Positions 6,690 to 64,000 of a stretch of DNA of 64,000 nucleotides are shown one piece after another (the first letter of the stretch is position 1; each line of letters begins with the position of its first letter). The stretch covers positions 120,034,001 through 120,098,000 of the forward strand of contig CM059431.1 in assembly GCA_030390025.1 (NCBI GenBank), written 5' to 3'. The notes beneath the pieces are model-generated. The model was not told the origin of the DNA and searched no databases. It was given only the letters and a program-made list of their open reading frames with translations. Origin of the DNA: Squalus acanthias. Its lineage: Eukaryota. The translations under genes were made by a program, and so were the position numbers.

Positions 6690-6859
6690 GTGAGGGGAGA
6701 AGGGGAAAAGTAAGAGGTGCATTCTTAAACCATCTGCAGTTTGTAATTTAGAAGAGAGTGTGGGATGATGGGGAAGTGGGATGTGAGAAGAAGGATTATG
6801 TATGAGGATACCATATTCTTTGATGGTTTCAGCCCTGCCACAGGCCACGGCCTCAGCAA

Positions 6860-8481
6860 TGTAAGGGTTTGGACGTGTCTCTCAGAGACGGTGCTGGTGC
6901 GAGGTTAGGCCTTCGTTGCCTAATACTATTGCTTGCTCTGGTCTCCGGCCAGCCCTTTTGCAATAAGCACCTGTGAGTGATTCGACCCACTCACCCTTAT
7001 GGTTCTAACACTGGACTTAGGTGCAGGGAGCAGTAATGCAGAGAAAACTCAAATAGACCCGGTTGAATAGTACGAAATGGAAATCTTTATTGCATAGCGT
7101 CCAAAATCATGAAGTACATGTCATAGGCGCAAATTAACGAGAGTACAAGTATACATACATTCATAAAGCTTGGTCTATGGAAATGAAGAATGAACGGCAC
7201 ATCGTAAAAAGGGGAACACATTATACTTTAACCTTAATAAAACCACCCTCCCTTAACAATACCTACACTACGTCTAGATTTGTAGGATCGGGTAACATGC
7301 TCACCACTCGTGTTACTTCGGAGAATTTTAAAGTGAGGCACTCGGCTCGTTTCGCTGCAGCGCCTGACTGTCACGTGTTTGGAAGGGTCTCTGTACCCCA
7401 CTTGTTTATTTTCGCTGCTGCGACAAGCAGGCCAGACTCCCTGTTGTCATGAAGAACTCGACAGAACTCGGAAACGTTTGTAAAATTCAAAGAAGAGTCT
7501 TCCTGTGCTCGACACTGGTTGTCGGTAGACTTCAATGAAAAGTTCTTTATTTATATTTTCGGGCGCGGTCGGGGTTTACTGACCGTGGCGGCACGTGGAT
7601 TCTTCTCCTCTTCTTCTCGTCTCGTCTCGTCTCTTCGGGCCTCCGGGTCCAGACACCGTTTACCGACACTCGGGATGGTGCACCCTGTTACTTGCCCTTG
7701 TCGGGGCAGCTCGTTCCGATTGAGCTCCACCCAACATCCGAATAACCGACCAGTACGGCTAAAAGTCAAGAGTCAACAAAGTCCAGCCCTAAAGAAGAGC
7801 TTCAGCCAGCGATCGAGCGAGTCAAGGGAATAAGAGAGCGATGGACATTTGTTCACTATAGTTATAGTGATGTGTTCCCTTATCTCCCGCTCAAATCTTA
7901 ATGTTTGTCCTTTGTGTAATACTGGTGCACAAAACTCCCAGCATGGGGCGGTTGTCTTCTTTAACGGGTTTCGGTAGCACCTGAAACTGGCCAACTATCC
8001 GTTAATGTTTTCCCCATTGTTGACCCAGCCAGGATGTGTACGAATCGTCTCCCTGACTGGTTTTGGGGGCCCCCGAATACTTGCTTAATCACCCGTCAAT
8101 GTCTCTCTCATTGTAGAGCCGGGGGGGTATTTGTGTATTGATGTGTCTGGATGGGCCTTCGATTGCCCAGTACAATGGTCCTTACTTGTGCATGAAAATG
8201 ATTCCAGCACTTATATCTTTGCTATTGTTCCAAATGCAAACGGGTTGCATCCTGTCTTTATCAATGTTTACCGAGTATGATCCAATCTTATATTGAATGT
8301 TTATTCGACGCCATTTTGTCTGCCCACTGTGTCTCTGGAAGCTTCTGCCACGATGCTCAGCGGCCATTTTACAGGCTTCTGTGTCCTTTATTATCAGGAC
8401 AGCATTTTGTTTAATAAAACTGATCAAACGAATCTGTTTCTCTTATGTTATTTCGAATCGCGATAATTGCGAAACTTTACA
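6860..8481 (-). repeat. 3' LTR (1622 bp)
   Basis: Near-identical to 13902-15527; on - a TATAAATA near 7549-7556 and AATAAA at 7086-7091. Confidence 0.95.
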
Positions 8482-8493
8482 GTCCCTCCTGTT
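8482..8493 (-). promoter_or_regulatory. Polypurine tract
   Basis: Minus strand aacaggagggac immediately before the 3' LTR TGT. Confidence 0.65.
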
Positions 8494-8609
8494 GATGCAA
8501 ATAACTCTGCTTATCGTATCAATTAAAAATTGTGGTGAGCAAAATTATCCCAATTCTCCACATCCAAACACTCCCGGAAATTAAACTATCTATGGCCTCC
8601 ATGCAGTCC

Positions 8610-10620
8610 TCATTTCCCAGAGAAAATTACATTGTCTAAACTTGGACAAACCGTAGGCATCATTGCCTTTAAACTTAAACTTACAATTCGCTGTTGTGCC
8701 ACTTGAACTTCAGCCCTGGGTTTAAAACAGAAACTGCTGTCACTCACCGGACACCGGCTGTGCTGTCCATGCTGGTAGTGTTGCACTGCAGTGGTGACGC
8801 AATACGTTCCACCCCCTATGTATGCCACCTGTGGGGGCACATGATCTTGTGTCATTGCTTCCATGGTGCAATTCATGGGCTTCGCGCCAGCCGTTCTGAA
8901 CCCGCATTGTGGTGTTAAAAAGGCATTCAAGTGCTGGGGACACAGTATGATGTGTGCTCCCCGGCCACGACAACCCGATAGGTCGGTACCTGTCATCGTT
9001 TGCTCCCAGCGGATGACGTAAGGTGGGACCGCTGCGTAGCGAATGTGGGCTCCCCCCTGAATGACACCAATGTTCTCCACCCGGTACACCGGGGCGGGCT
9101 TTGCTGTGTCGCCCAACACCGGCATCCATAGTACTATACCCATGATGGTATGATTTGACTGTCCGCAGTCCACTGGGACTGGGTATGCCTCTGAGGCTAG
9201 CCTGAGCTGGCACGGGCTTAATGCGTTCTGAAAAGGGTGGAGCGCCTGCAGGTGTTTGTTACTTATCCAGGACGGGACCAAACCTTGTTTTAAATCCTCC
9301 AAATTACTGCGGCCCTCGCCCAGTAACCACGCCCCGTATAGTACGCACACCTCGTTCTGCGCAGCTTGGTCGGATGCATTCCGATCTTCCCTGTTCAGGG
9401 CATTTACCGTTCTCGCGTGCTTCTCCAGCTCTGCTATAATCTCTTTTAAGTGTAGTGTCATGGCCTGGTGCTCATGTACTTCAGACCCTACAACCTTGTT
9501 TTCGCTTGTGAGGATGCTTTTTAACTGTGTTTTTAAACCGTTGATCTGGGTCTGCAGCTCCACATTGTCTAGAGCGTTGACCACAGACGTTCCCGTATTA
9601 AAAGCAGTGAACACATCGTTCACAACACCCCTTCTTTGTCTCCCCACCTGACCCAAAACTTTGTGTGGTGTGGTGTATAAGCTTGTTTTGTCAACCTCCG
9701 CAAAATCAAACTCATAAAATTGCCTGAACATGTTTGTTAACAGGACCTGGTACAATTGTTCCGTTTCTTTGGGACACCACTCTGGTAAACGCACCTCGGT
9801 GAGATTTAAAATCACCGAGGCCACCGCGTAATGTACCCCTTGATATAGTATCTGGTCCGTTGGCACCAGTACCAGACCATTCCCGGGCCCCTTAGTGGTT
9901 TTAGGGCACCCTTCCTCCTGAGCCAAAGCCACCGGAATCGTGGGTGGAGACTTGCGTGGGCGTGTGATGAGTTCAGTGGCGTTTACCGGGATCGGGGAGA
10001 AAGGAGCTCCGCACCCCCTGGTGCTGACATCCCACCTCATCCCTTTCCCGTCATCCTGCCACTGTCGTAGGAAAAAATATGGATATACCCTTGGGGCAAA
10101 CGTACTTCGATCCCCACATACAAACATATATTCCCTCATCCGGTTCCCACCATTTGTCCCAACAGACTTTCAATTGTCCGTTAGTCCCCGTAATTGTCCG
10201 ATGGGTATTGTTACCCAATCGCTCCCACTCAACCGAGGAATTTCTCATAGTCTTGCTTAACTTCCGTAACCACCACCATCGGCTCAATGGGACCTTCCCA
10301 TTGCATGTCAAACAAATCCTTTTGCCGACGGTGACGCTGATTCTGGGTGCAATGATCCTCACCCTGGGACACAGTAAAGAAGTCTCTTTGTAGGCAAATC
10401 CGGATGCGCTGGAGTAAACCGTTGAATTCGTTCCCAGCCATCCCGGCTACCTTCCCTTGTGGAAATAAGTGGCGGTTTCCTCAGCCTCTCGCTCCCCGGT
10501 CCCATCCGTTGCGATAGGGGCCGTGTCCCCGGAGCAACCGAACACAACGACATCCTTGGTGAGGCCCCGATAGGCCAATCCATATCCGATCGTTGCGAGC
10601 ACTATCAGAATCCTTTCCAT
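8610..10620 (-). pseudogene. env: env-like gene: signal peptide + Ig-like domain + F-type class I fusion glycoprotein; one stop, one frameshift, no TM anchor
   Basis: ATG at 10620 reads MERILIVLATIGYGLA; in-frame TAG at 10447-10449; CLTC...W...DEGIYVC; +1 shift (possibly the A6 run at 10072-10077) into ORF 8610..10139 with furin-like RQRR (9630-9641), heptad region and Cys-rich domain. Confidence 0.8.
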
Positions 10621-10891
10621 ATCTCCTGGTTCCTGTGATCAGATAAAATGATGTAGCCAGCCTCCCAAGAGTCTCTGGCTTTTGTGAAGGGTGAGCGGGT
10701 CCCTTGACCTCGTCTCACGTAAAAAGACATGTATGCTGGATAGACTTTAACTATTCCTATCACTAACTCCCATCATTTTACCATTTACTTATAAAAATTA
10801 AACTACAATCTTACCAAACTTAAAAACACTATAAACTTAAACTTATCCTAAACTTAACTGTACAGCGCCGCCCGTTCCCAGGGCGGCCTAC

Positions 10892-12097
10892 CTAAATTCT
10901 GCGAAGGCTGCCACGAGCTTTTCCCAGTGGCGGGGGGGCACTGACCCCTTCCTTTGATCTACCGCAGCCTGTCGCTGCTGCGCTGGGACTGGGATCTCCC
11001 TGGGCTGCCTTGAACTTACGCCTGGGGGTGTACGGGGGATTTGACCACGACTTCCTGGGCTGGGGTGTCCGACTTGACCTTCGGAGGGCTACCTTGGGCA
11101 AGATCTCCAGGGCCGACGGACCGGGAACCGAGACTACCACCGTCACGGCCTGTGGTCCCACCACAGCCGCCGGCTCCGTCTCCCCTGGCTCCGCCCCCCT
11201 GGGCTCGGGATTTGCGGTTTCCGACTCCACCCTACTTGTATGTGGAACTCCACTCGCAATCCCTATCTCCCCTGTGGGCAAGATTTCCAGGGCCGACGGA
11301 CCGGGAACCGAGACTTCCACCGTCACGGCCTGTGGTCCCACCACAGCCGCCGGCTCCGTCTCCCCTGGCTCCGCCCCCCTGGGCTCGGGATCTGCAGTTT
11401 CCGATTCCACCCTGTGTGGAACTCCACTCGCAATCCCTGTCTCCCCTATGCTTGGGTCGAGGGCGAAACCTTCGTCCTCCGACCCCACCACCTCTCCGAC
11501 CGGGTCACTACCTTGATCAAGCTCTCCGAGCTCTTCCTCATCTGAATCCCAACCCCAAGAAAAGATCCTACACTTTTCCAAAATGTCTTCTCCCCTCACG
11601 CAGGCTGCTTTACCGGCCTGTGTGCCCTGCGGTTCTACCCGGGGCTGAGAGTCCCCACTCGCAGGTTTGGCCCCTCCCCTAAGACAGGCCACCGCCCCTG
11701 CTTGTGCATTCTGTGTAATCTCGCCTGCTGGAGGCTGCAGATTTCTATTCTGTTTTAGTTTGGGCAACTCTGCTACCATGGCTTGCAACTGCGGGGTGGT
11801 GAATTCCCCCGGGGTTGTTGAGCAAACCATCCCTCTGGCTTTGGATAGGGCTTGGGTCAGACCTTTTATCCTTTCCTCACAGGGCCCATGGTTTAAAACC
11901 TCATACTCCCTGCTCCTGGCTACCCTGTAGGCTGCCTTTATGTCTCTAAGCTGCCCTTCTAGCCCATCTATTTTCCCCATTAAGCGGGCGTTCTCCTCCC
12001 GCAAGGCATGCTCTTTTAACCTGGCCTCCTTACAGGAGACCCCCTCCTGTGCGTGTCTTTCAAGGGGACACAGGTAGGCAGGCTGCACCGGTTCCAG
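10892..12097 (-). CDS. ORF2: in frame after the gag TGA; divergent Gag-like coiled coil + Pro/Glu-rich duplicated segment + basic tail
   Basis: Open for ~400 codons; TGA CTG GAA CCG GTG continues the gag frame; similar to the Gag N-terminal half; no PR, RT, RH or IN motifs. Confidence 0.65.
   Translation of the reverse strand: MEPVQPAYLCPLERHAQEGVSCKEARLKEHALREENARLMGKIDGLEGQLRDIKAAYRVARSREYEVLNHGPCEERIKGLTQALSKARGMVCSTTPGEFTTPQLQAMVAELPKLKQNRNLQPPAGEITQNAQAGAVACLRGGAKPASGDSQPRVEPQGTQAGKAACVRGEDILEKCRIFSWGWDSDEEELGELDQGSDPVGEVVGSEDEGFALDPSIGETGIASGVPHRVESETADPEPRGAEPGETEPAAVVGPQAVTVEVSVPGPSALEILPTGEIGIASGVPHTSRVESETANPEPRGAEPGETEPAAVVGPQAVTVVVSVPGPSALEILPKVALRRSSRTPQPRKSWSNPPYTPRRKFKAAQGDPSPSAAATGCGRSKEGVSAPPPLGKARGSLRRI
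11095..11447. repeat. ~180-bp in-frame tandem duplication inside ORF2
   Basis: tgggcaagatYtccagggccgacgg begins at 11095 and 11275; peptide GIASGVPH...PSALEILP occurs twice. Confidence 0.9.
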
Positions 12098-13897
12098 TCA
12101 GAAGTCTGGGTTGTATGGGGCTGTTGCTACCTCCCCGTGCAAAATCATAAGAGACCGCATGGCTCCTAACATTGATTCTATCGCATCGGGATGGATAGGC
12201 ACACCAGCTCCTTTCTCAGAGACAGGCGCTTGGGTTCGGACTGCGGGAGCTTTGTCCCTGGAGTCCTTCCAGGGATTCCTGCAGTTTTTACGCCAGTGAC
12301 CTGTCTTCCCGCACCCGTAACAAACACCACTGGTTTGTGGGGCGCGATTTCCCTCCTGATGCCACTCTTTCTGAGCCGGAGCTGCGGGCTTTGCCTCATG
12401 CACCTTTCCCTTAAGGGGACGCGCTCCCGTGCTCCTAGTGTTCCGATACCCTATGGTGAGTCGATTTAGGACAGACTCCTCCGTTGTGGCGGGGTTAGTG
12501 GGATCAAACCACGCTCTGGCCTGCTCCCTGACGTCTAGCAAGCTGTTGGCTACCATGCACCTGAGCCAATGAGCTTTCCCGGCGCCGTCCAGATAGGTGC
12601 GCGCTGGCGCACCTGGGCAGCTACGCTGGTATACTGGCCACAGTCTGTCGGCGAAAACCTTCGGGGGTTCTCCCTCCATCTGTATGGTTTGACTCAATCT
12701 GACGAACGGACCTTCGTCATCCGCCCCTAACACTTCTAGGACCTCGTCCCGTAACTCCTCATAGGTTTTATTTCCCTTCTTGCTCTCATCGGAGAGACAC
12801 TGAAGGATCGAGCTATCTAAAGAGAACAGCAATATTTTGGTCTTTTCCTCATCGTCGCAGCCATTAATTGCTGCGGTCTGTTCTACTTCCCTAAAATGTA
12901 CGGAAGGGTCATCTGATTCGGACAGCTTCCGTACATGGCTAATCATTGCTCTCAGCTGGTGTGAGCTGTGGGGCAATACAAGTTGGTTCAGGACATCCCC
13001 GTCTTCCCCATTGGCTGCATTCGGGCCTCTCTTGTGACCTCGGAGCGGACACATCGGTCCCGGTCTCGACTCTACCTCCGGGGATTGTCCTACCTCGGGA
13101 ACCTCCTTCTCTATTTCCACCACTTCCTCCCTTACCCAGGTTGCCGAATAGCTGGGTGGCGCGGAGGGCACAGTGGCAAATACGTCATCTGCTTTGTCTG
13201 GTAGGGATTTTGGGAATTCCCTACCCACCTGTGGCTGGCTCGCTGATGGGCTGATGAGACACACCAAGCCGTTTGCCTTATTCAGGGCCTCTTTTAGGTT
13301 CCCTATCTCCTTCTGGCAAACACTGTGGTCGGCTCCCTCATGCCTATCCTCGAGGGCCATCTTGTATGCAGCCCTAACTCCCTTCAAGCTTTCTTCCTGG
13401 GCTTTTATCTGGTTTGCTAGGTGGGCGCACCGTTCTCTAATCCTTCCCTCGTTTAATTTTGCTTCCGTGACCTGACATTCTAGGTAATCAGTTTTAGCCT
13501 CATGGTGGTTGGCTACTATTTGGCGTTCCTGATGTAATGCATTCAATGATGCAATGAGTTTTTTTCCTCCCGTGACCTTTTCCTCCATCTCTACCTCCAG
13601 TTCCCTGATCTGAGCTGCCTGTGCCACAATGACCTGGTCCGAAAGTTGGACTTGCTTCTTGTAGCACATCAGCCAGACTGCTTTCTCCACCGACTTCTTA
13701 TGCTCTTTACTGCCTGTCCATTTGATGGCAGCGTCTAGCGGACGCTTATCCATCAGTAGGTCACTTATCCACCTTTTGGTTAAGTTAACCTTCCCAAACA
13801 CATAGTCGGCTACCCTCTCATCCATCACATTTCGCCTATTCAAACCAGGGTCTAAAACATAACTCTCCCGCTGCCAATGTCCTGCCGCGGTCGCCAT
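12098..13897 (-). CDS. gag: Gag polyprotein, 599 aa, intact
   Basis: Coiled-coil N half; PSAPPSY late domain (13148-13168); capsid MHR-like QMEGEPPKVFADRL; CX2CX4HX4C knuckle CYGCGKTGHWRKNC (~12281-12322). Confidence 0.9.
   Translation of the reverse strand: MATAAGHWQRESYVLDPGLNRRNVMDERVADYVFGKVNLTKRWISDLLMDKRPLDAAIKWTGSKEHKKSVEKAVWLMCYKKQVQLSDQVIVAQAAQIRELEVEMEEKVTGGKKLIASLNALHQERQIVANHHEAKTDYLECQVTEAKLNEGRIRERCAHLANQIKAQEESLKGVRAAYKMALEDRHEGADHSVCQKEIGNLKEALNKANGLVCLISPSASQPQVGREFPKSLPDKADDVFATVPSAPPSYSATWVREEVVEIEKEVPEVGQSPEVESRPGPMCPLRGHKRGPNAANGEDGDVLNQLVLPHSSHQLRAMISHVRKLSESDDPSVHFREVEQTAAINGCDDEEKTKILLFSLDSSILQCLSDESKKGNKTYEELRDEVLEVLGADDEGPFVRLSQTIQMEGEPPKVFADRLWPVYQRSCPGAPARTYLDGAGKAHWLRCMVANSLLDVREQARAWFDPTNPATTEESVLNRLTIGYRNTRSTGARPLKGKVHEAKPAAPAQKEWHQEGNRAPQTSGVCYGCGKTGHWRKNCRNPWKDSRDKAPAVRTQAPVSEKGAGVPIHPDAIESMLGAMRSLMILHGEVATAPYNPDF
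13879..13896 (-). promoter_or_regulatory. Primer binding site, tRNA-Arg (probably TCG)
   Basis: TGGCGACCGCGGCAGGAC is complementary to GTCCTGCCGCGGTCG-CCA, the vertebrate tRNA-Arg(TCG) 3' end as recalled; 5 nt downstream of the 5' LTR. Confidence 0.8.
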
Positions 13898-13901
13898 TTT
13901 C

Positions 13902-15527
13902 TGTAAGGGTTTTGGACGTGTCTCTCAGAGACGGTGCTGGTGCGAGGTTAGGCCTTCGTTGCCTAATACTATTGCTTGCTCTGGTCTCCGGCCAGCCCTT
14001 TTGCAATAAGCACCTGTGAGTGGTTCGACCCACTCGCCCTTACGGTTCTAACACTGGACTTAGGTGCAGGGAGCAGTAATGCAGAGAAAACTCAAATAGA
14101 CCCGGTTGAATAGTACGAAATGGAAATCTTTATTGCATAGCGTCCAAAATCATGAAGTACATGTCATAGGCGCAAATTAACGAGAGTACAAGTATACATA
14201 CATTCATAAAGCTTGGTCTATGGAAATGAAGAATGCACGGCACATCGTAAAAAGGGGAACACATTATACTTTAACCTTAATAAAACCACCCTCCCTTAAC
14301 AATACCTACACTACGTCTAGATTTGTAGGATCGGGTAACATGCTCACCACTCGTGTTACTTCGGAGAATTTTAAAGTGAGGCACTCGGCTCGTTTCGCTG
14401 CAGCGCCTGACTGTCACGTGTTTGGAAGGGTCTCTGTACCCCACTTGTTTATTTTCGCTGCTGCGACAAGCAGGCCAGACTCCCTGTTGTCATGAAGAAC
14501 TCGACAGAACTCGGAAACGTTTGTAAAATTCAAAGAAGAGTCTTCCTGCGCTCGATACCGGTTGTCGGTAGACTTCAATGAAAAGTTCTTTATTTATATT
14601 TTCGGGCGCGGTCGGGGTTTACTGACCGTGGCGGCACGTGGATTCTTCTCCTTTTCTTCTCATCTCGTCTCGTCTCTTCGGGCCTCCAGGTCCAGACACC
14701 GTTTACCGACACTCGGGATGGTGCACCCTGTTACTTGCCCTTGTCGGGGCGGCTCGTTCCGATTGAGCTCCACCCAACATCCGAATAACCGACCAGTACG
14801 GCTAAAAGTCAAGAGTCAACAAAGTCCAGCCCTAAAGAAGAGCTTCAGCCAGCGATCGAGTGAGTCAAGGGAATAAGTTAGCGATGGACATTTGTTCACT
14901 ATAGTTATAGTGATGTGTTCCCTTATCTCCCACTCAAATCTTAATGTTTGTCCTTTGTGTAATACTGGTGCACAAAACTCCCAGCATGGGGCGGTTGTCT
15001 TCTTTAACGGGTTTCGGTAGCACCTGAAACTGGCCAACTATCCGTTAATGTTTTCCCCATTGTTGACCCAGCCAGGATGTGTACGAATCGTCTCCCTGAC
15101 TGGTTTTGGGGGCCCCCAAATACTTGCTTAATCACCCGTCAATGTCTCTCTCATTGTAGAGCCGGGGGGGTATTTGTGTATTGATGTGTCTGGATGGGCC
15201 TTCGATTGCCCAGTACAATGGTCCTTACTTGTGCATGGAAAACGATTCCAGCACTTATATCTTTGCTATTGTTCCAAATGCAAACGGGTTGCATCCTGTC
15301 TTTATCAATGTTTACCGAGTATGATCCAATCTTATACTGAATGTTTATTCAACGCCATTTTGTCTGCCCACTGTGTCTCTCTGGAAGCTTCTGCCACGAT
15401 GCTCGGCGGCCATTTTACAGGCTTCTGTGTCCTTTATTATCAGGACAGCATTTCGTTTAATAAAACTGATCAAACGAATCTGTTTCTCTTATGTTATTTC
15501 GAATCGCGATAATTACGAAACTTTACA
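13902..15527 (-). repeat. 5' LTR (1626 bp)
   Basis: Direct repeat of 6860-8481, followed on - by the PBS. Confidence 0.95.
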
Positions 15528-16135
15528 GCAATGACCCTTCCAATAATGGCCAGCACCATTTCCTGCATGGGCGTTAGAAAATGCAGGCGTGCCTCTCCCC
15601 CTCTGGTTAGTTCCTTTCGCCATTGGTTGTGTGCCACCTTCTCCTGCAAGAGAGAGGGAAGTGTGTAAGTGAGTGTCATGCAATATGTTTGGGTGATGTG
15701 GCTGCCATGATTGAATAGCTGGCAGTGTGTGTAAGCTGTGAGATTTGAGTGTGAGACTTGCAGCAGTGCTAAGTGTGTCAGGGTGAGGTGAAGCATATGT
15801 ATGTTAGGTATGAGTCCTGCTTGATAGAGATTGCTGCTAGTTGAGTGATGGAGTTGTGGTGGTCTGAGCAGTGGCTGAGGCTAATGTTGCAGTTGTTAGG
15901 ATATGGCATTTGAAGATGTATTCACTGACCTTGACCAATCGTGTGAGGTTAAACATCTTGCGGCACTGCATCCAGATCCTTGGAACTAGACACCTGGCTA
16001 TCTGCTCCCACTGCTTTTTCACTGTGTATCTGGAGGGCCTCCTGGCCCCCTGTGGATACAGGACATCGCTCCTCCTTTCCCCACCTCCATCAAGACCTCC
16101 AGCTTTGGAAAACTTTGGTGCCTGCTTTCTCCCAT
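15528..16135 (-). pseudogene. Exons 1-2 of Harbinger Myb/SANT-like gene; exon 2 split by the provirus and resuming at 6859-6812
   Basis: KKQWEQIA...RIWMQCRKMFNLTR then GT donor at 15929; acceptor ttgcag at 15644, EKVAHNQ...LAIIGRVIA, continuing EAVACGRAETIKE beyond the TSD. Confidence 0.75.
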
Positions 16136-17001
16136 GTTGAGCTATTCTTCTGTCTTTCCCAGAACAGATTCAGCTCACAAAGGACTTCCAGCATCTGCTC
16201 CAGCCACAATGCACCTCCCCTTTAAGATGTGCAGGCTAACTTTAAGCAGTGCAGGCTAGCTTTAAGTAACGCTAGCAAGTATCGATTTTGGGCCCCCAGC
16301 TGATGTGTGCAGCCAATCAACAGCACAGTTAGCCCTGGCTGGGTGCAGAATCATGTTAATGAGCAGGCAGCACAAAAATGCCATGCTGCCTGCATTACAT
16401 CACACAGGCACGGGGTAATTGCGCATCCCAATCCCCACACCTATTTTCGGGGGCTATCCAATTTAGCCCCCTTTGAATCTCAGCCTAGGCCTTCAGTGGA
16501 AGACTTGTTCCAGTTTTTAGAGCCCTATAGCACTTTTAATGTTTCCTCCCATCTCTTCTGGTGCTGTCCCACTGCAGCACCACCTCGATCTTCCTGGGGC
16601 CACTGCCTGTCTTCCGCTGGCTGGCAGGGATCCCACCCATGGCCTGCTGTGAATGCATAATAATCCCAGACTGAGGAAGTTGGGTTGGTGGTTGGATGTC
16701 CTGTCCCAAACTTGTACGGGCAGATTAAGGGAAATTCAACCCAATGTTGCTGATGCAATAAAATACCTGCTCAGATAATCAATCCACACTCTTTTATTAA
16801 CTAACATTCCTCCACACTGGCAGGACACCCAAATCCTGACAGCACATTTGTCAAAAATGTTTTTGTGTTTTTCCCAAGAAGCTTTAAAATCTTTCCGATA
16901 TGGCATCCTGTGTACTGTCACTATTAAAGAATGAACAAAAATAAATGGTAGCATTGTATTTGTATAGAATATAAAGCAAGACTGCATCCCCCAAAAATGA
17001 C

Positions 17002-18960: not shown

Positions 18961-20149
18961 TTAACTAAATCTGGTCATAAATCGGGCAGCAATGTGATCG
19001 TGTACTAGTGGCATTTGGACCGCCGGCTCTGCCAGGTCTTCCTCATCCTCATGCTGCTCCTCCTCCTGCTCCAAAGAGGCTATGCGGTCTGCACCTTGCT
19101 CCTCATGCAGCGCTAATCCTCGCTGCAGCGCTATGTTGTGCAGGGTGCAGCAGACCAAGACAATTCTGGAGACCCTGGCTGCTGCGTACTGCAGGGCTCC
19201 TCCAGATCTGTCCAGGCATCTGAAGTGCATTTTGAGCAACCCTATTGTCTGCTCTATGACACTTCTAATGTAGATGTGGCTTTGATTGTAATGTTTCTCA
19301 GCCTCGTTTGTTGTTCTTCTCAAAGGTGTCATGAGCCACGTCTTCAGGGGATAGCCCTTGTCTCCAGGCAGACAGCCGGAAAGACTGTTTGGAGGTGCGC
19401 AGAGCTGAGGGACGGTGGACTGGCACAGGATGTAAGATTCATGGCAGCTGCCAGGGAACCTGACGTACACATGAATGATGATCTTCCTATGGTTGCAGAC
19501 GAGCTGCACCTTGAGGGAGTGGAAGCTCTTGTGGATGACAAAGACTGCTGGGTTCTGATGGGGTGCCCTGATGGCCACATATGTGCAGTCAGTGACACCC
19601 TGCACCCGTGGGAAGCCAGCCAGAGCTGCAAAGCCGAGCGCACACTCAGCAACACTGGCTTCATCAGTGGCAAAGTTGATATAATTGGCGGACTTTTCAA
19701 AGAGGACATCGGTGACCTGTGGGCAGTCGACTGCGAGATGCCACAAATGTCTGCTGCAGATGCCTGGAAGGAGCCTGAGGCAAAGAAGTTGAGGGCACGG
19801 ATGACTTTGACAGCTACTGGTAAGGGGTGTCCACCTGTTCATCTGGGCTGCAGGTCTTGCTCCAGCAATCTGCGATGACCTGGCGCGATAGCCTGAGCCT
19901 CCTGAAGCACCGCTTCTCACTCATGTTGAGGAAGCTCATCCTCTGCCTGTAAACCCTGTGCTGGGGGCATTGCCTCTGGCGTGGTCCAGCCCTGCACTGA
20001 TGCCCTCTGCCCTGTGCAGCATCAGGTGGTTGAGGAGAAGGTTGGCGGTCTTGTTGTTGGTGCTGCTGGTGTGCCTGATTCTGCTGGTGTTGCGGCTGAT
20101 CATGGTCAGATTCTGAGGACCAAGGTGAGAGAGTACAAACCGTACCCAT
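18961..20149 (-). pseudogene. Harbinger (HARBI1-like) transposase, catalytic region open, N-terminus frameshifted
   Basis: [63 protein letters not shown]. Confidence 0.9.
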
Positions 20150-27681: not shown

Positions 27682-30490
27682 TCAGTATCCTGTACCTGCC
27701 TTCTCCCCATATCCCTTGATACCTTTATCTTTAAGAAATATATCTAACTCATTCGTCAATATATTTAATGACTTGGCCTCAACTACCTTCTGTGGTAGAG
27801 AATTCCACAGGTTCACCACTCTCTGGGTGAAGAAATTCTTGCTCATTTCTATCCTAAATGGCTTACCCCTTATCCTTAGATTATGACCCCTGGTTCTGGG
27901 CTCTCCGACCATCGAGAACATTCTTCCTGCATCTAGTTTGTCCAGACCTGTCAGAATTTTATATGTTTCGATGAGATCCCCTCTCATTCTTCTATACTCC
28001 AGCGAGTATAAGACCAATCGAAACAATATCTCCTCATATGTCATTCCTGCCATCCCAGGTATCAGCCTTATGAATCTTCGCTGAACTCCTTCCATGGCAA
28101 GAACATCCTTCCTCAGATAAGGCGACCAAAACTGCACACAGTACTCAAGGTGTGGTCTCACCAAGACCCTGTACAACTGCAGCAGGACATCCCTGTTCCT
28201 ATACTCAAACCCTTTCGCTATGAAGGCCAACATACCATTTGCCTTCTTCACCGCCTGCTGCACCTGCATGCTTACCTTCAGCGACTGGTGCACAAGGACA
28301 CCCAGGTCTCGTTGCACCTCCCCTTCTCCCAATCTATTGCCAGTCAGATAATAGTCTGCCTTCCTGTTTTTGACACCAAAGTGGATAACCTCGCATTTAT
28401 CCACATTATATTGCATCTGCCACGCTTCTGCCCACTCACCCAACCTGTCCAAATCATCCTGGAGTTTCTCGGTATCCTCCTCGCAGCACACACGCCCACC
28501 CAGCTTTGTGTCATCTGCAAACTTGGAGATATTACATTTAGTTCCCTTATCTAGATCATTAATGTATATTGTGAATAGCTGGGGTCCAAGGACCGATCCC
28601 TGCGGTACCCCACTAGTCACTGCCTGCCACTCGGAAAAAGACCCATTAATTCCTACTCTCTGCTTTCTGTCCGCCAACCAGTTCTCAACCCAAGTCAATA
28701 CCTTGCCCCAATCCCATGTGCCTTAACTTTACACGCTAATCTCTTATGTGGGACCTTATCGAAAGCCTTTTGAAAATCCAAATACACCACATCTACTGGT
28801 TCTCCCTTATCTATTTTCCCAGTTACATCCTCAAAAAATTGCAGTAGATTAGTCAAGCACGATTTACCTTTTGAAAATCCATGTTGACTTTGTCCGATCC
28901 TGTCACTGTTTTTCAAGTGCTCAGCTATTACATCCTTTATAATGGACTCTAGCATTTTCCCCACTACCGATGTCAGGCTTACTGGTCTGTAATTCCCCGC
29001 TTTCTTTCTACCACCCTTTTTGAATAGTGGGGTAACATTAGCTACCCTCCAATCCATGGGTACAGTTCCAGATTCCATCGAATGTTGGAAGGTGATCAGC
29101 AATGCATCTACTATTTCTAGGGCCACTTCCTTAAGTACCCTAGGATGTAGATTATCAGGCCCTGGGGATTTATCGGCCTACAATCCCGTCAATTTCCCTA
29201 ACACCATTTCCCTGCAAATACTGATTTCTTTCAGTTCCTCCCTTTCATCAGACCCTATGTTCTCCAACATCTCTGGGAGGTTATTTGTGTCCTCCTTTGT
29301 GAAGACAGAACCAAAATATGCATTTAATTGGTCTGCCATTTCTTTGTTCCCCATTATAACTTCCCCCGCTTCTGACTGCAAGGGACCTACACTTGATTTC
29401 ACTAATCTTTTTCTCTTCACATATCTATAAAAGCTCTTACAGTCAGTTTTATGTTCCCTGCAAGCTTACTTTCATATTCTATTTTCCCCTTCTTAATTAA
29501 TCCCTTTGTCCTCCTTTGTTGAATCCTAAACTGCTCCCAATCCGCAGGGCTACCACTTTTTCTGGCCAATTTATATGCCCTCTCCTTGGATCTTATGCTA
29601 TCGCTAATTTCCCTTGTTAGCCACGGTTGAGTCACCCTTTTTGTTTTATTCTTATGCCACACTGGGATGAACAAATACTGTAGTTCATCCATGCAGTCTT
29701 TGAATGTTTGCCATTGACTATCCACCGTCAACCCTTTGAGTGACATTCCCCAATCAATCCTACCCAATTCGCGCCTCATACCATCGTAGTTTCCTTTATT
29801 TAAATTCAGGACCCTAGTCTCTGATTCAACTACTTCACTCTCGATCTTAATGAAGAATTCTATCATATTATGATCACTCTAACCCAAGGGACCTCGTACA
29901 ACAAGATTGCTAATTAATCCTTTCTCGTTACATAATACCCAGTCTAAGATGGCCTGATATCTGGTTGGTTCCTCGACATATTGTTCCAGAAAACCATCCC
30001 GTAAACATTCTAGGAATTCCTCCTCCACAGTATTTTTACTAATTTGGTTAGTCCAATCTATATGTAAATTAAAGTCACCCATGATGACTGCTGTGCCCTT
30101 ACTGCATGCTTCTCTAATTTCCCTTTTAATGCCATCCCCAACCTCCGTATTACTGTTTGGAGGTCTATATACCACTCCCACTAACGTTTTCTCCCCCTTG
30201 TTATTTCTCAGTTCTACCCATACAGATTCCGCATCATCAGAGCTAATATCCTTCCTTTCAATTGTGTTAATCCCCTCTTTAACCAGCAATGCTACCCCAC
30301 CTCCCTTTCTTTTTTGCCTATCTTTCCTAAATATTGAATACCCCTGGATGTTGAGTTCCCAGCCTTGGCCACCCTGGAGCCATGTTTCTGTAATCCCAAT
30401 CAAATCATATTCATTTACCTCTATTTGCGCAGCTAATTCATCCACCTTGTTCCGAATGCTCCTTGCATTAAGACACAAAGCCTTCAGGCT
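27682..30490 (-). pseudogene. CR1 ORF2 (APE endonuclease + RT), fragmented
   Basis: CLNARSI, GITETWL, VYRPP, MGDFN (29879..30478); RT in 28695..29126 and 27682..28698 with FADD. Confidence 0.95.
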
Positions 30491-60978: not shown

Positions 60979-60992
60979 TGGTGACCCCGACG
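60979..60992 (+). promoter_or_regulatory. Primer binding site, tRNA-Trp
   Basis: TGGTGACCCCGACG is complementary to the tRNA-Trp 3' end CGTCGGGGTCACCA. Confidence 0.85.
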
Positions 60993-61017
60993 CTCAGAAC
61001 GTATTCCGAGCACTGCA

Positions 61018-64000
61018 ATGGCAGACACGAACGCAGTTTCCGTGAAACTGCCGGAGTTTTGGGAAAACCAGCCCGAAGCCTGGTTCCTCCAAGTCGAGTC
61101 CCGGTTCTGGCTGCGACACATCACCACAGATGGGACGAAGTACGACTACCTCGTCACATCACTCGGTAGCTGCACAGTTACGAAGGTCTGGACAGCGCTG
61201 CAGAACCCACCAGAGGAGGGCAAGTATGCACATCTTAAGGCCGCGCTCCTTAAAAAATTTACGGCCTCGGCATACCAGCGAAACTGCCACCTCCTCGACC
61301 TTCCAGGCCTCGGGGATGCCTCACCGTCAGACCTCCTCGCCCACATGCTCTCCCTCACCGACGAGAGCCCACCCGGATCCCTCTTCCGCACGCTGTTCAT
61401 CCGCCAGCTACCTCTCAGCATCCACCCAGCGATCATGGCGTCCGGCCTCACGGACCTGGAAGCCCTGGCCGATGAGGCCGACAAGCTGCTGTCCGCTCAC
61501 TCCAGCCGCGACGTCACTCCGGACCTGGCAGCCACTGCCTGGGCGCGCCCTTCACTGGCCACCACGCGGCCACAAGGCCCAGCCACCGGGCTCACGGGGC
61601 CTTCGCACCCCACTAACCCGGGCCACTGTTACTATCACGCACGGTTCGGCGCCAGGGCACAACGGTGCATACCTCCCTGCTCTTTCAAGTCCGCCCCCGT
61701 ACCAGCCCCCGCGATGGCCGTGGGCCAAGTGGGCTCCCTGCTGTACGTCACGGAGGACAAAACCGGCCGCCGGTTCCTGTGCGACACTGGAGCTCAGCAC
61801 AGCATCATCCCAGCCTCCTCCCTCGACATCCGAAAGGGCAAACGAGGACTGGCGATGGCTGCTGCTAACGGCTCGGACATCCGGACGTACGGCACCCGCA
61901 CAATCACCCTCAACCTCGCTGGTCGCCGCTACCGATGGGAGTTCATCACTGCCAAGGTGCTCTCCCCTCTCATCGGCGCAGATTTCCCGTGTGCCCACGG
62001 CCTACTGGTAGACATCCCTCGACACTGCCTCGTGGACATGAACACCATGTCCCCCATCCTGGGCGCCATGGCCCCCCGTCAACCCGCCGACATGGCGTCA
62101 CAGTGCCACGCCCGGGCCACGGATGACTACTCGGCACTCCTGGCCGAATTCCCGGCCCTTACCAATCCTACCTTCTCCGCGGAGGCCGCCAAACACGGGA
62201 TGGAACACTTCATCCCCACCACAGGCCCCCTAGTGTACGCCCACGCCCGCAGGCTGGACCCGGCCAAACTGGAGATCGCGTGGACCGAGTTTGCCACCAT
62301 GGAACAGCTCAGCATCATCCGCCGCTCCAACAGTCCCTGGGCCTCCCCACTCCACATCGCCCCCAAACCAGGCGGGGGTTGGCACTCCTGCGAGGATTAT
62401 CGCAGCCTCAACGACGCCACCACCCCTGATCGGTACCCCATGCCACACATCCAGGACTTCTCGGCTAGACTGGCCGGCCGTTCAGTCTTTTCCAAGGTCG
62501 ACCTGGTGCGCGGCTACCACCAAGTCCCCGTCCACCCCGCAGACGTCCCCAAGACGGCCGTAATCACCCCCTTCGGCCTTTTCGAGTTCCTGCGGATGCC
62601 CTTCAGCCTCAAAAACGCAGCCCAGGCATTCCAACGGCTCATGGACTCGGTCCTTCGGGACCTGAAGTTCCTGTTCGTCTACCTGGACGACATCCTGGTA
62701 GCCAGTTCCTCCAAGCAGGAACACCTCGAACACCTTCGCATCCTGTTCGGGCGCCTCAGCGACCACGGGCTCATCCTCAGCCCAGCTAAATGCCAGTTCG
62801 GCCTGGACAAGATCGACTTCCTCGGCCACCACATCACCCATGCTGGGGCCATTCCCCTGCCCACCAAGGTGCAGGCCATCCAACAATTTCCCCGCCCCAC
62901 CACCATCAAAGGCCTCCAGGAGTTCCTCGGATGGTGAATTTCTATAACTGCTTCATCCCCAAAGCGGCGTCCCTCATGAGGCCCCTGTATGAAGCCCTCC
63001 GGGGCAGGAGCGGCAAGATGGCGGTCGAATGGACGGCAGACGCGTCCGCCGCCTTCGACTCCACCAAGACCGCGCTTGCCAACGCCACCCTGCTCGCGCA
63101 CCCACGGCCCAATGCCAGGGTAGCGCTCACCACGGACGCCTCCGACCACGCGGTCTGCGCCGTGTATGAGCAGTGGGTCGACGGCGCCTGGCAACCACTT
63201 GCCTTCTTCAGCCGCCAACTACACCCCCCGGAGGTCAAGTACAGCACCTTCGACCGCGAGCTCCTCGCGCTGTTCCTGGCGGTCCGCCATTTTCGGTTTT
63301 TGCTGGAGGGCCACCCCTTCACTGCGTTTGTCGACCACAAACCCCTGACGTTCGCAATGGCAAAGACAACCGACCCCTGGTCCGCCAGGCAGCAGTGCCA
63401 GCTCGCGGCAGTGTCCGAGTTCATCACGGACATCCAACACGTCTCCGGCCGAGACAATGTGGTAGCCGACTGCCTCTCCCACCCCGCCATCCACGCCGCA
63501 CACCTGGCAGTCGACTACGCTCAACTCGCAGCAGACCAGATCACCGACCCTGATCTGCTCTCCGCACCTACTAACCTACCAGGGCTACGCCTGGCCGACG
63601 TCGCCTGTGACCCAACCGCAGTCACGGTCAAGTGCGACATATCCCTATGTCAACCTCGGCCCGTCGTCCCAGCGTCCTGGCGCCGCCGGGTATTCGAGAT
63701 TCTCCACAACCTCTCCCACCCTGGCGCCCGCGCATCCATCAAATTGGTAGCCAACCGCTTTGTCTGGTGCGGCCTTCGCAAGGATGTGCGTACTTGGGCC
63801 AACTCCTGCCTAGCCTGCCAACGGGCCAAGGTGCAGCAACACATGAGAGCACCCCTCGAGTAATTTACCGTCCCTTCGCGTATATTCGACCACATCCACG
63901 TGGACATCGTCGGGCCCCTGCCGCCGTCGCAAGGCCACACGCACTTGCTGACGATCGTTGACCGCACCACGCGCTGGCCCGAGGCAATTCCACTGACCTC
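61018..64000 (+). pseudogene. Gag-Pol polyprotein with a frameshift at ~62930 and a stop at 63861-63863
   Basis: KLPEFW gag; CYYH...C...C; FLCDTGA protease; YLDD RT; TDAS RNase H; H..SH...CLAC integrase zinc motif; HVDIVGP. Confidence 0.92.

What the first reader, a model, noticed from the sequence alone, without database searches (positions are those of the whole stretch)
8610..10139. F-type class I fusogen lacking HR2 and a transmembrane anchor
Seen: RQRR/GVVNDVFTAFNTGTSVVNAL cleavage site and putative fusion peptide, long heptad stretch, LVPSWI, DLSGC...IILC...C...C...YC Cys cluster; no CKS-17 or CX6CC motif. The ORF ends about 130 bp before the PPT with no hydrophobic span, and the reading changes character at a GTAAGT (~8683). 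Inference: either a deletion, a spliced C-terminus, or a secreted receptor-blocking Env.
Basis: partly seen in the sequence, partly recalled or inferred. Interest (0 to 1): 0.75.

Follow-up and report, generated by a model that had tools for sequence, protein, structure and literature searches.

The report
Broken F-type envelope of shark retroelement
This is a decayed envelope gene of a retrovirus-like element in a shark-like genome: it has the fold of a paramyxovirus fusion protein, but this copy has lost its membrane anchor and its secretion signal, so it is most likely a dead remnant and not a secreted antiviral protein.

Summary
The motifs, the missing hydrophobic span and the break at ~8684 are all real. 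The F fold is confirmed (Foldseek E 1.4e-10 to hPIV3 F; VIA Z 10.9 to NDV F).

The 509-aa ORF is only the middle of a longer env in a pol-less LTR element (6860-15527, minus strand, 4-bp TSD, LTRs 1.4% apart). That env starts at 10620 with a signal-like peptide and a probable Ig-like domain. These are cut off from the F part by a stop (10447-10449) and a frame change (~10072). Homology ends at ~8684-8676, where relatives go on for ~130 aa with HR2, TM and tail: 9 of the 18 relatives that reach this point (44 examined) have a TM, and none shares the window's tail.

Verdict: deletion in a dead env. A secreted receptor blocker or a spliced anchor is not supported. Whether sister copies share the deletion is open. 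The family is the interesting part: an Ig-capped F-type Env in sharks and frogs, loki-like but unplaced without RT. This scan noted that layout before, on other DNA of the same genome (e1-8036072).

The parts
6860..8481 (-). 3' LTR (element-strand termini TGTAA...TTACA)
   Evidence: 1601 of 1627 columns identical to the 5' LTR; K2P 1.43%, 19 transitions and 4 transversions
13902..15527 (-). 5' LTR
6856..6859 (.). Target-site duplication GCAA (second copy at 15528-15531)
   Evidence: flanks printed
13879..13896 (-). Putative primer-binding site starting TGG, 5 nt inside the LTR and overlapping the gag start codon; primer tRNA not identified
   Evidence: role inferred from position
12098..13897 (-). 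gag, open, 599 aa: coiled coil, Ty3-like capsid, one CCHC knuckle
   Evidence: zf-CCHC E 0.0025, below the Pfam cut-off; Atlas Retrotrans_gag/zf-CCHC 0.95; 59% identity to a Rhinoraja protein
10892..12097 (-). ORF2, 401 aa stop-to-stop, in frame after the gag TGA; partial gag duplicate plus a 180-nt direct repeat; no pol motif
   Evidence: residues 24-96 match gag 145-217 (38%, E 5e-13); repeat D19; motif scan
10450..10620 (-). env start: ATG and signal-peptide-like N-terminus
   Evidence: best KD 1.21; no signal predictor run; same region at the start of P0003, P0006, P0007 and inside P0039
10447..10449 (-). In-frame stop codon (first lesion)
   Evidence: four relatives align through it in one frame
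10072..10446 (-). Probable Ig-like domain (C..W..DEGIYVC)
   Evidence: Pfam Ig_3 E 0.021; 37 of 39 weak PDB hits are Ig-superfamily, best E 0.087; model inconclusive
10066..10078 (-). Frame change between the Ig-like and F parts (second lesion)
   Evidence: P0003, P0006, P0007 and P0039 each need two frames here
8685..10076 (-). F-type fusogen core: F2-like part, RQRR site (9641-9630), putative fusion peptide (9629-9570), HR1 helices (residues 173-284), Cys-rich beta domains
   Evidence: AlphaFold model, pLDDT 70; fold searches
8676..8684 (-). End of env homology (third lesion); about 130 codons for HR2, membrane-proximal Trp stretch, TM and tail are absent
   Evidence: P0001, P0004, P0010, P0017, P0022, P0026 and P0043 all stop aligning at 8676
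8491..8684 (-). AT-rich 3' untranslated stretch; the ORF reads 24 codons into it; a mildly hydrophobic off-frame stretch lies at 8584-8528
   Evidence: no match to relatives; KD 1.57 is reached by 16% of 1000 shuffles
8483..8490 (-). Short polypurine tract

Best explanation
The ORF is the surviving middle of a pseudogenised env in a non-autonomous LTR retroelement (gag, ORF2, env; no pol) of a cartilaginous fish. In the family, Env is a type I membrane protein: signal peptide, probable Ig-like domain, F2-like part, furin-type site, fusion peptide, HR1, Cys-rich domains, HR2, TM and tail. It would work like paramyxovirus F: cleavage, HR1 extension, HR2 zippering, membrane fusion (inferred from fold). 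The Ig-like domain may bind the receptor (speculative). This copy has a stop, a frame change and a 3' deletion joining the end of the Cys-rich domain to the 3' UTR. Without a signal it cannot enter the ER, without HR2 it cannot form the six-helix bundle, and without a TM it cannot anchor, so it makes no working fusogen and no secreted F ectodomain. Shown: fold, architecture of relatives, three lesions, absence of pol. Inferred: non-function, deletion as the mechanism, helper-dependent spread.
For: Fold: Foldseek top 10 rows are all paramyxo/pneumovirus F, best E 1.4e-10. VIA top 15 rows are F or foamy Env, best Z 10.9 (rmsd 9.3, 342 aligned); the first unrelated row is Z 6.0. Truncation: P0043 (72% identity) aligns to 8676 and then has 132 more residues with a TM of KD 2.35. 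Of 44 relatives, 18 reach the junction, 9 of these have KD >= 2 within 170 aa, and none matches the window's last 24 aa (best E 0.66). P0011, P0025, P0032 and P0040 carry an N-terminal domain, the F core and a TM in one ORF. Upstream lesions. One contig of another organism (X6 record 25) leaves the window at 8683 with 14 unaligned letters. P0003 lacks a different internal part of Env, so env decay is not unique to this copy (an automatic gene model).
Against: No sister copy from this genome could be aligned: no genome is held, and the contig table shows 32 of 9964 pieces, none bridging the junction. So 'copy-specific' is not shown, and a sub-lineage may share the deletion. Nine of the 18 relatives that reach the junction show no TM; most end within 3-77 residues, one diverges and one runs into a cadherin gene model. 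The F part is open for 464 codons and gag is intact, but that is expected of a young insertion. TM-scores are only 0.36-0.42 with large rmsd in the top Foldseek rows, and sequence searches alone found no F family.
Confidence: 0.85

Rival explanations
1. The 3' deletion is not private to this copy but marks a sub-lineage of defective elements that spread with a helper's enzymes. The env is still non-functional.
For: The tail 8582-8672 is covered in all 4 runs, and variants of it occur in 4-6 contigs in 3 of 4 runs. The element already lacks pol.
Against: Depth in that bin is 33-75 times lower than in the next env bin in all 4 runs, and one contig leaves at 8683. The dip is weak evidence, because the other AT-rich gap (10766-10856) also dips 8-44 times.
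Confidence: 0.3
2. A secreted, receptor-blocking Env fragment co-opted by the host, like suppressyn.
For: The F ectodomain core is open and well modelled. The precedent of a TM-less Env competitor exists (passages of PMC13709493).
Against: No signal peptide in the ORF (best KD 0.99). The real start is cut off by a stop and a frame change. The probable receptor-binding Ig-like domain is the part disconnected. The insertion is young (LTRs 1.4% apart).
Confidence: 0.04
3. The GTAAGT at 8684 is a splice donor that brings in an anchor exon.
For: It is a perfect donor hexamer at the junction, one of 2 on the element strand. Some automatic gene models join env pieces to other sequence (P0005, P0009, P0026).
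Against: No relative-like C-terminus lies in the window. The motif is part of an AAGTTT repeat also found in the other non-coding gap. The upstream lesions remain.
Confidence: 0.04
4. The anchor is the hydrophobic stretch at 8584-8528 in another frame, reached by a frameshift.
For: It is the most hydrophobic 19-mer in three frames of 8300-10900 (KD 1.57).
Against: 16% of 1000 shuffles reach this value; best p about 0.04 in 18 comparisons with relatives' C-termini. Relatives' TMs score 2.1-3.1. HR2 would still be missing.
Confidence: 0.03

Closest known systems
Lokiretrovirus Env (Wang and Han, PMC7947760)
   Same: Vertebrate LTR element with an Env like paramyxo/pneumovirus F. By eye, the same motif order: GP-x-G strand, basic cleavage site, HR1, P-x-aromatic motif, Cys cluster. 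The Gag capsid pattern is similar by eye. BHIKHARI shows pol-less loki elements exist.
   Different: In 15 of the 16 Env proteins I saw (of 23 in the supplement; one is partial), the F core follows the signal peptide with no Ig-like insert. The paper found loki in 0 of 3 chondrichthyan genomes. This element has no pol, and its Gag has a CCHC knuckle, whereas Bik-1 Gag is described with a glycine-rich patch. The comparison was by eye, not scored.
Errantiviruses: Ty3/gypsy with F-type Env (Chary and Hayashi, 10.1101/2023.10.26.564294)
   Same: Best Atlas clusters are Baculo_F/Gypsy env (0.95) and Retrotrans_gag/Ty3_capsid with CCHC (0.95). 4-bp TSD and TG..CA ends.
   Different: That study found no intact vertebrate element homologous to the invertebrate ones, and the searched text has no hit for 'immunoglobulin' or 'Ig-like'. 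There is no RT here to place the element.
Paramyxovirus/pneumovirus F, lispivirus G, baculovirus F
   Same: Same core fold, furin-type site, HR1.
   Different: 9-16% identity. Paramyxovirus F has no Ig-like head and uses a separate attachment protein (recalled). This copy lacks HR2 and TM.
Foamy virus Env and walleye epsilonretrovirus Env
   Same: Foamy Env 8rm0 Z 8.6, a known F-related fold (PMC11468914). WEHV1 Env model E 1.4e-7.
   Different: Foamy Env has a large inserted RBD and two membrane spans. Pfam listed no Gag_p30 match for this Gag.
Suppressyn-type secreted Env remnants
   Same: Env lacking its TM.
   Different: Suppressyn keeps the receptor-binding part and is secreted (recalled). 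Here the signal and the probable binding domain are disconnected.

Membership tests
F-type (paramyxovirus-like) class I fusogen | F core fold | tested here: met
   Foldseek E 1.4e-10; VIA Z 10.9, rmsd 9.3, 342 aligned
F-type (paramyxovirus-like) class I fusogen | Basic cleavage site followed by fusion peptide | tested here: met
   RQRR at 167-170; an R-x-[KR]-R match in 11 of 13 relatives scanned, in one (P0040) only near the N-terminus. The peptide is only mildly hydrophobic (KD 0.88) and has low pLDDT.
F-type (paramyxovirus-like) class I fusogen | HR1 coiled-coil helix | tested here: met
   helices 173-214 and 223-284
F-type (paramyxovirus-like) class I fusogen | HR2 and TM anchor | tested here: not met
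   absent in this copy; TM present in 9 of 18 relatives reaching the junction
F-type (paramyxovirus-like) class I fusogen | Signal peptide in frame | tested here: not met
   cut off by a stop and a frame change
Lokiretrovirus | RT groups with the loki clade; tether plus RNase H; CGIN1-like integrase | not testable with these tools
   no pol in the element; no longer Gag-Pol relative found; no relative's DNA obtained
Lokiretrovirus | gag, pol and env between LTRs | tested here: not met
   pol absent; pol-less loki relatives exist
Lokiretrovirus | Env related to PF00523 F | tested here: met
   by fold and Atlas Fusion_gly cluster 0.93; not by Pfam HMM
Lokiretrovirus | Env sequence falls within the published loki Env group | tested here: inconclusive
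   by-eye resemblance only; loki Envs seen lack the Ig-like insert
Errantivirus (Ty3/gypsy with env) | Ty3/gypsy RT-RH-IN | not testable with these tools
   no pol
Errantivirus (Ty3/gypsy with env) | Ty3-like Gag with CCHC | tested here: inconclusive
   Atlas 0.95, a lead only; zf-CCHC below cut-off
Gamma-type orthoretroviral Env | CKS-17 immunosuppressive motif and CX6CC | tested here: not met
Epsilon-like ERV | Gag_p30-type capsid and epsilon RT | tested here: inconclusive
   Gag_p30 not listed; Env fold match to WEHV1; no RT
Co-opted secreted Env (suppressyn type) | Signal peptide and receptor-binding part in one open frame | tested here: not met
Co-opted secreted Env (suppressyn type) | Expression, orthology and purifying selection | not testable with these tools
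   no genome; contigs only
Immunoglobulin superfamily domain | C-W-C core and beta-sandwich fold | tested here: inconclusive
   motif present; Ig_3 E 0.021, and 0.0027 for P0007; 37 of 39 weak PDB hits are Ig; model pLDDT 42.6

The most novel reading that the evidence does not exclude
This copy is a broken member of an undescribed vertebrate retroelement lineage (sharks, rays, frogs; Ig-less relatives in coelacanth and eel). Its F-type Env has an Ig-superfamily domain fused in front as a built-in receptor-binding module, making a one-protein attachment-plus-fusion machine distinct from published loki Env. In sharks it has spread to high copy as a pol-less gag/gag-duplicate/env element.
Probability: 0.45. 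Interest if true: 0.62.

Novelty: new variant of a known kind. Interest (0 to 1): 0.35.

Why it matters
The truncation itself matters little: lost env ends are normal decay. The family matters more. It puts an F-type envelope on an LTR element in cartilaginous fish, where the loki survey found none in 3 genomes. It adds a probable Ig-like head not seen in the loki Envs I viewed. It offers another point for the question of how F-like fusogens are shared among retroviruses, retrotransposons, baculoviruses and mononegaviruses. A 16-member cluster of near-identical proteins in one frog, at least 11 of them 677 aa and under different locus tags, suggests recent activity of related elements.

Tried and rejected
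Own genome: not held, so no copy-by-copy alignment.

Sequence searches of the ORF: Pfam, PDB phmmer and the 41-sequence profile against PDB gave no fusion-protein hit; only fold and feature searches did.

Expression: no RNA holder listed on record; X11 is only guessed to be RNA, and all four runs laid were contigs, so neither expression nor splicing was tested.

Depth dip at 8582-8672: rejected as proof of a private deletion because the other AT-rich gap dips too. No joint at 8684 was listed, but the tables are cut.

Off-frame hydrophobic stretch: rejected as a TM.

Ig-like domain: the single-sequence model had pLDDT 42.6 and best VIA Z 5.3, inconclusive. A profile of five close Ig-like segments hit only 2 of 11 distant N-termini at E < 0.05.

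Looking for pol: longer Gag-Pol search found nothing among 8000 candidates. A metagenome scan with P0043 gave 128 pattern hits, none confirmed. A viral-contig scan could not run on the divergent alignment.

A weak tblastn hit at 16060-16206 (E 0.009) shows no Ig motif; dismissed.

The tree of 17 Env rows (of 45 held; most short fragments and the chimeric models left out, no F or loki outgroup) groups the window with P0001, P0002 and P0043 (100/100) but cannot place the family.

Earlier findings: none by sequence or place.

Literature: seven searches showed no paper describing an Ig-capped F-type Env in cartilaginous fish. The library lacks most subscription papers and Repbase, and preprint supplements were not seen.

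Full report
Observation. The ORF is on the minus strand, 10139-8610, 509 aa. There is no CX6CC, CC or LQNR core. The best 19-residue hydropathy is 0.99, so the ORF has neither a TM nor a signal peptide. The stop is 128 nt from the LTR, and GTAAGT lies at 8684-8679.

Context. The ORF sits in an LTR element at 6860-15527. The LTRs are 1.62 kb, 1601 of 1627 columns identical, K2P 1.43%, with TGTAA..TTACA ends and a GCAA target-site duplication. At the mammalian rate used by Wang and Han this gives about 3 million years (my arithmetic); shark rates are slower (recalled), so it is a minimum. Inside are an open 599-aa gag, a 401-aa ORF2 that partly duplicates gag, and env. A motif scan of the three element-strand frames found no RT, protease or integrase zinc-finger motif, only one GPY triplet in an off frame of env. 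No genome is held. The closest named relatives are from sawshark and a ray, so the host is taken to be a cartilaginous fish.

Fold. An AlphaFold model from 41 sequences (pLDDT 70, pTM 0.58) matched paramyxovirus and pneumovirus F in all top 10 Foldseek rows (best E 1.4e-10; 229 matches at E <= 0.001). In VIA the top 15 of 48161 chains were F proteins or foamy Env (NDV F Z 10.9, rmsd 9.3, 342 aligned; foamy Env Z 8.6), with the first unrelated row at Z 6.0. BFVD gave lispivirus-type glycoproteins, baculovirus F and walleye epsilonretrovirus Env. The Atlas gave Baculo_F/Gypsy env at 0.95. TM-scores are modest (0.36-0.42 in the top rows), and sequence methods alone failed.

The ORF is not the gene. 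Upstream, in another frame, lie an ATG at 10620 with a signal-like peptide, a stop at 10447-10449, and an Ig-like stretch. P0003, P0006, P0007 and P0039 carry these parts and the start of the F core in one protein, and each needs two window frames to align, switching near 10072. P0003 and P0006 are automatic gene models, but P0007 is an ORF from an assembled contig. So the first ~21 residues of the reported ORF are an off-frame reading. The Ig call is probable, not proven: Pfam Ig_3 E 0.021, 37 of 39 weak PDB hits Ig-superfamily with best E 0.087, UniRef's label for P0011, against an uninformative model.

The 3' end. Seven relatives stop aligning at 8676. P0043, 72% identical, continues for 132 residues with a heptad helix, a Trp-rich stretch, a TM (KD 2.35) and a tail. 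Of 44 relatives examined, 18 reach this point and 9 have a TM within 170 residues. The other 9 mostly end early; one diverges and one is a chimeric model. None matches the window's last 24 residues. P0003, P0009 and P0040 also have a hydrophobic span near the C-terminus but were not counted, as their scored alignments end earlier. The missing part is not elsewhere in the window (best E 0.33). An off-frame hydrophobic stretch at 8584-8528 is at chance level. The donor-like GTAAGT is part of an AAGTTT repeat that recurs in the non-coding gap behind ORF2. The simplest reading is a deletion that joined coding sequence to the 3' UTR.

Private or shared? Not settled. Contigs of four runs cover the whole stretch. 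One contig leaves at 8683, and depth falls 33-75 times just downstream, but it also falls 8-44 times in the other AT-rich gap, and only 32 of 9964 pieces are shown. Some contigs in all four runs differ in length from this copy near the frame change. Expression was not testable.

Mechanism. Family level, inferred from fold and from the HR1/HR2 six-helix-bundle mechanism (passages of PMC11468914): a furin-primed class I fusogen, perhaps with its own Ig-like attachment head. This copy: no in-frame signal, no HR2, no TM, so non-functional (0.85). The secreted-blocker, splice and frameshift readings each get 0.03-0.04.

Comparison. It works like F. Membership is open because no RT is available. Loki Env is closest in host type and motif order by eye, but lacks the Ig-like insert in the 15 Env starts seen, and was not found in 3 chondrichthyan genomes. 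The Gag looks Ty3-like by Atlas features, yet the errantivirus survey reports no vertebrate members. Relatives occur in several sharks, two frogs, coelacanth and eel.

Papers seen. PMC7947760: parts 1-3 of 4 and supplement passages (file cut when stored). 10.1101/2023.10.26.564294: abstract, half of section 6, passages; supplements not seen, and they may bear on vertebrate elements. 10.1101/2024.03.25.586437, PMC11089739, PMC13709493, PMC11468914 and 10.1101/2021.11.05.467493: passages. PMC12440569: abstract and outline. Seven searches showed no description of an Ig-capped F-type Env in cartilaginous fish.

Verdict. Observation confirmed, interpretation partly supported. The truncation is ordinary decay; the family is a new variant of a known kind. 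Interest 0.35.

Noticed in passing
window 13879-13901: The gag ATG (13897) overlaps the TGG of the putative primer-binding site, 4 nt inside the 5' LTR. The Rhinoraja relative P0059 starts with a similar peptide, so the layout may be conserved.
   Followed up: partly
window 10892-12100: ORF2 follows the gag TGA in frame and begins with a 38%-identical duplicate of gag residues 145-217. It then has Pro/Glu-rich repeats with a 180-nt duplication, and sits where pol would be. Readthrough was not tested.
   Followed up: partly
window 6860-8481 and 13902-15527: LTRs are long (1.62 kb) and hold five AATAAA sites on the element strand.
   Followed up: no
window 8400-11100: The env stretch is held by 20 of 22 listed runs, from organisms A-G in 8 studies. 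Thousands of variant contigs map to it, pointing to a high-copy family in several species.
   Followed up: partly
P0005, P0026, P0039: Automatic Pristiophorus gene models fuse env pieces to Niban, cadherin and zinc-finger genes. These may be annotation artefacts or chimeric transcripts.
   Followed up: no
P0007 and P0043: Both come from 2750-nt Logan contigs and cover the front and back halves of the env; possibly one frameshifted copy (inferred from equal length only).
   Followed up: no
P0009, P0016: These shark relatives have a different, Cys-rich N-terminal domain instead of the Ig-like one, and P0034, P0037 and P0041 have none. This suggests modular swapping of the head.
   Followed up: no
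window 60985-63860: A second, gypsy-like gag-pol region on the plus strand with an RT-like motif; apparently unrelated to this element.
   Followed up: no
window 18961-19920; 1243-2517, 27685-28722: A Harbinger-like transposase ORF and CR1-like LINE RT fragments (labels recalled from sequence look, not searched).
   Followed up: no
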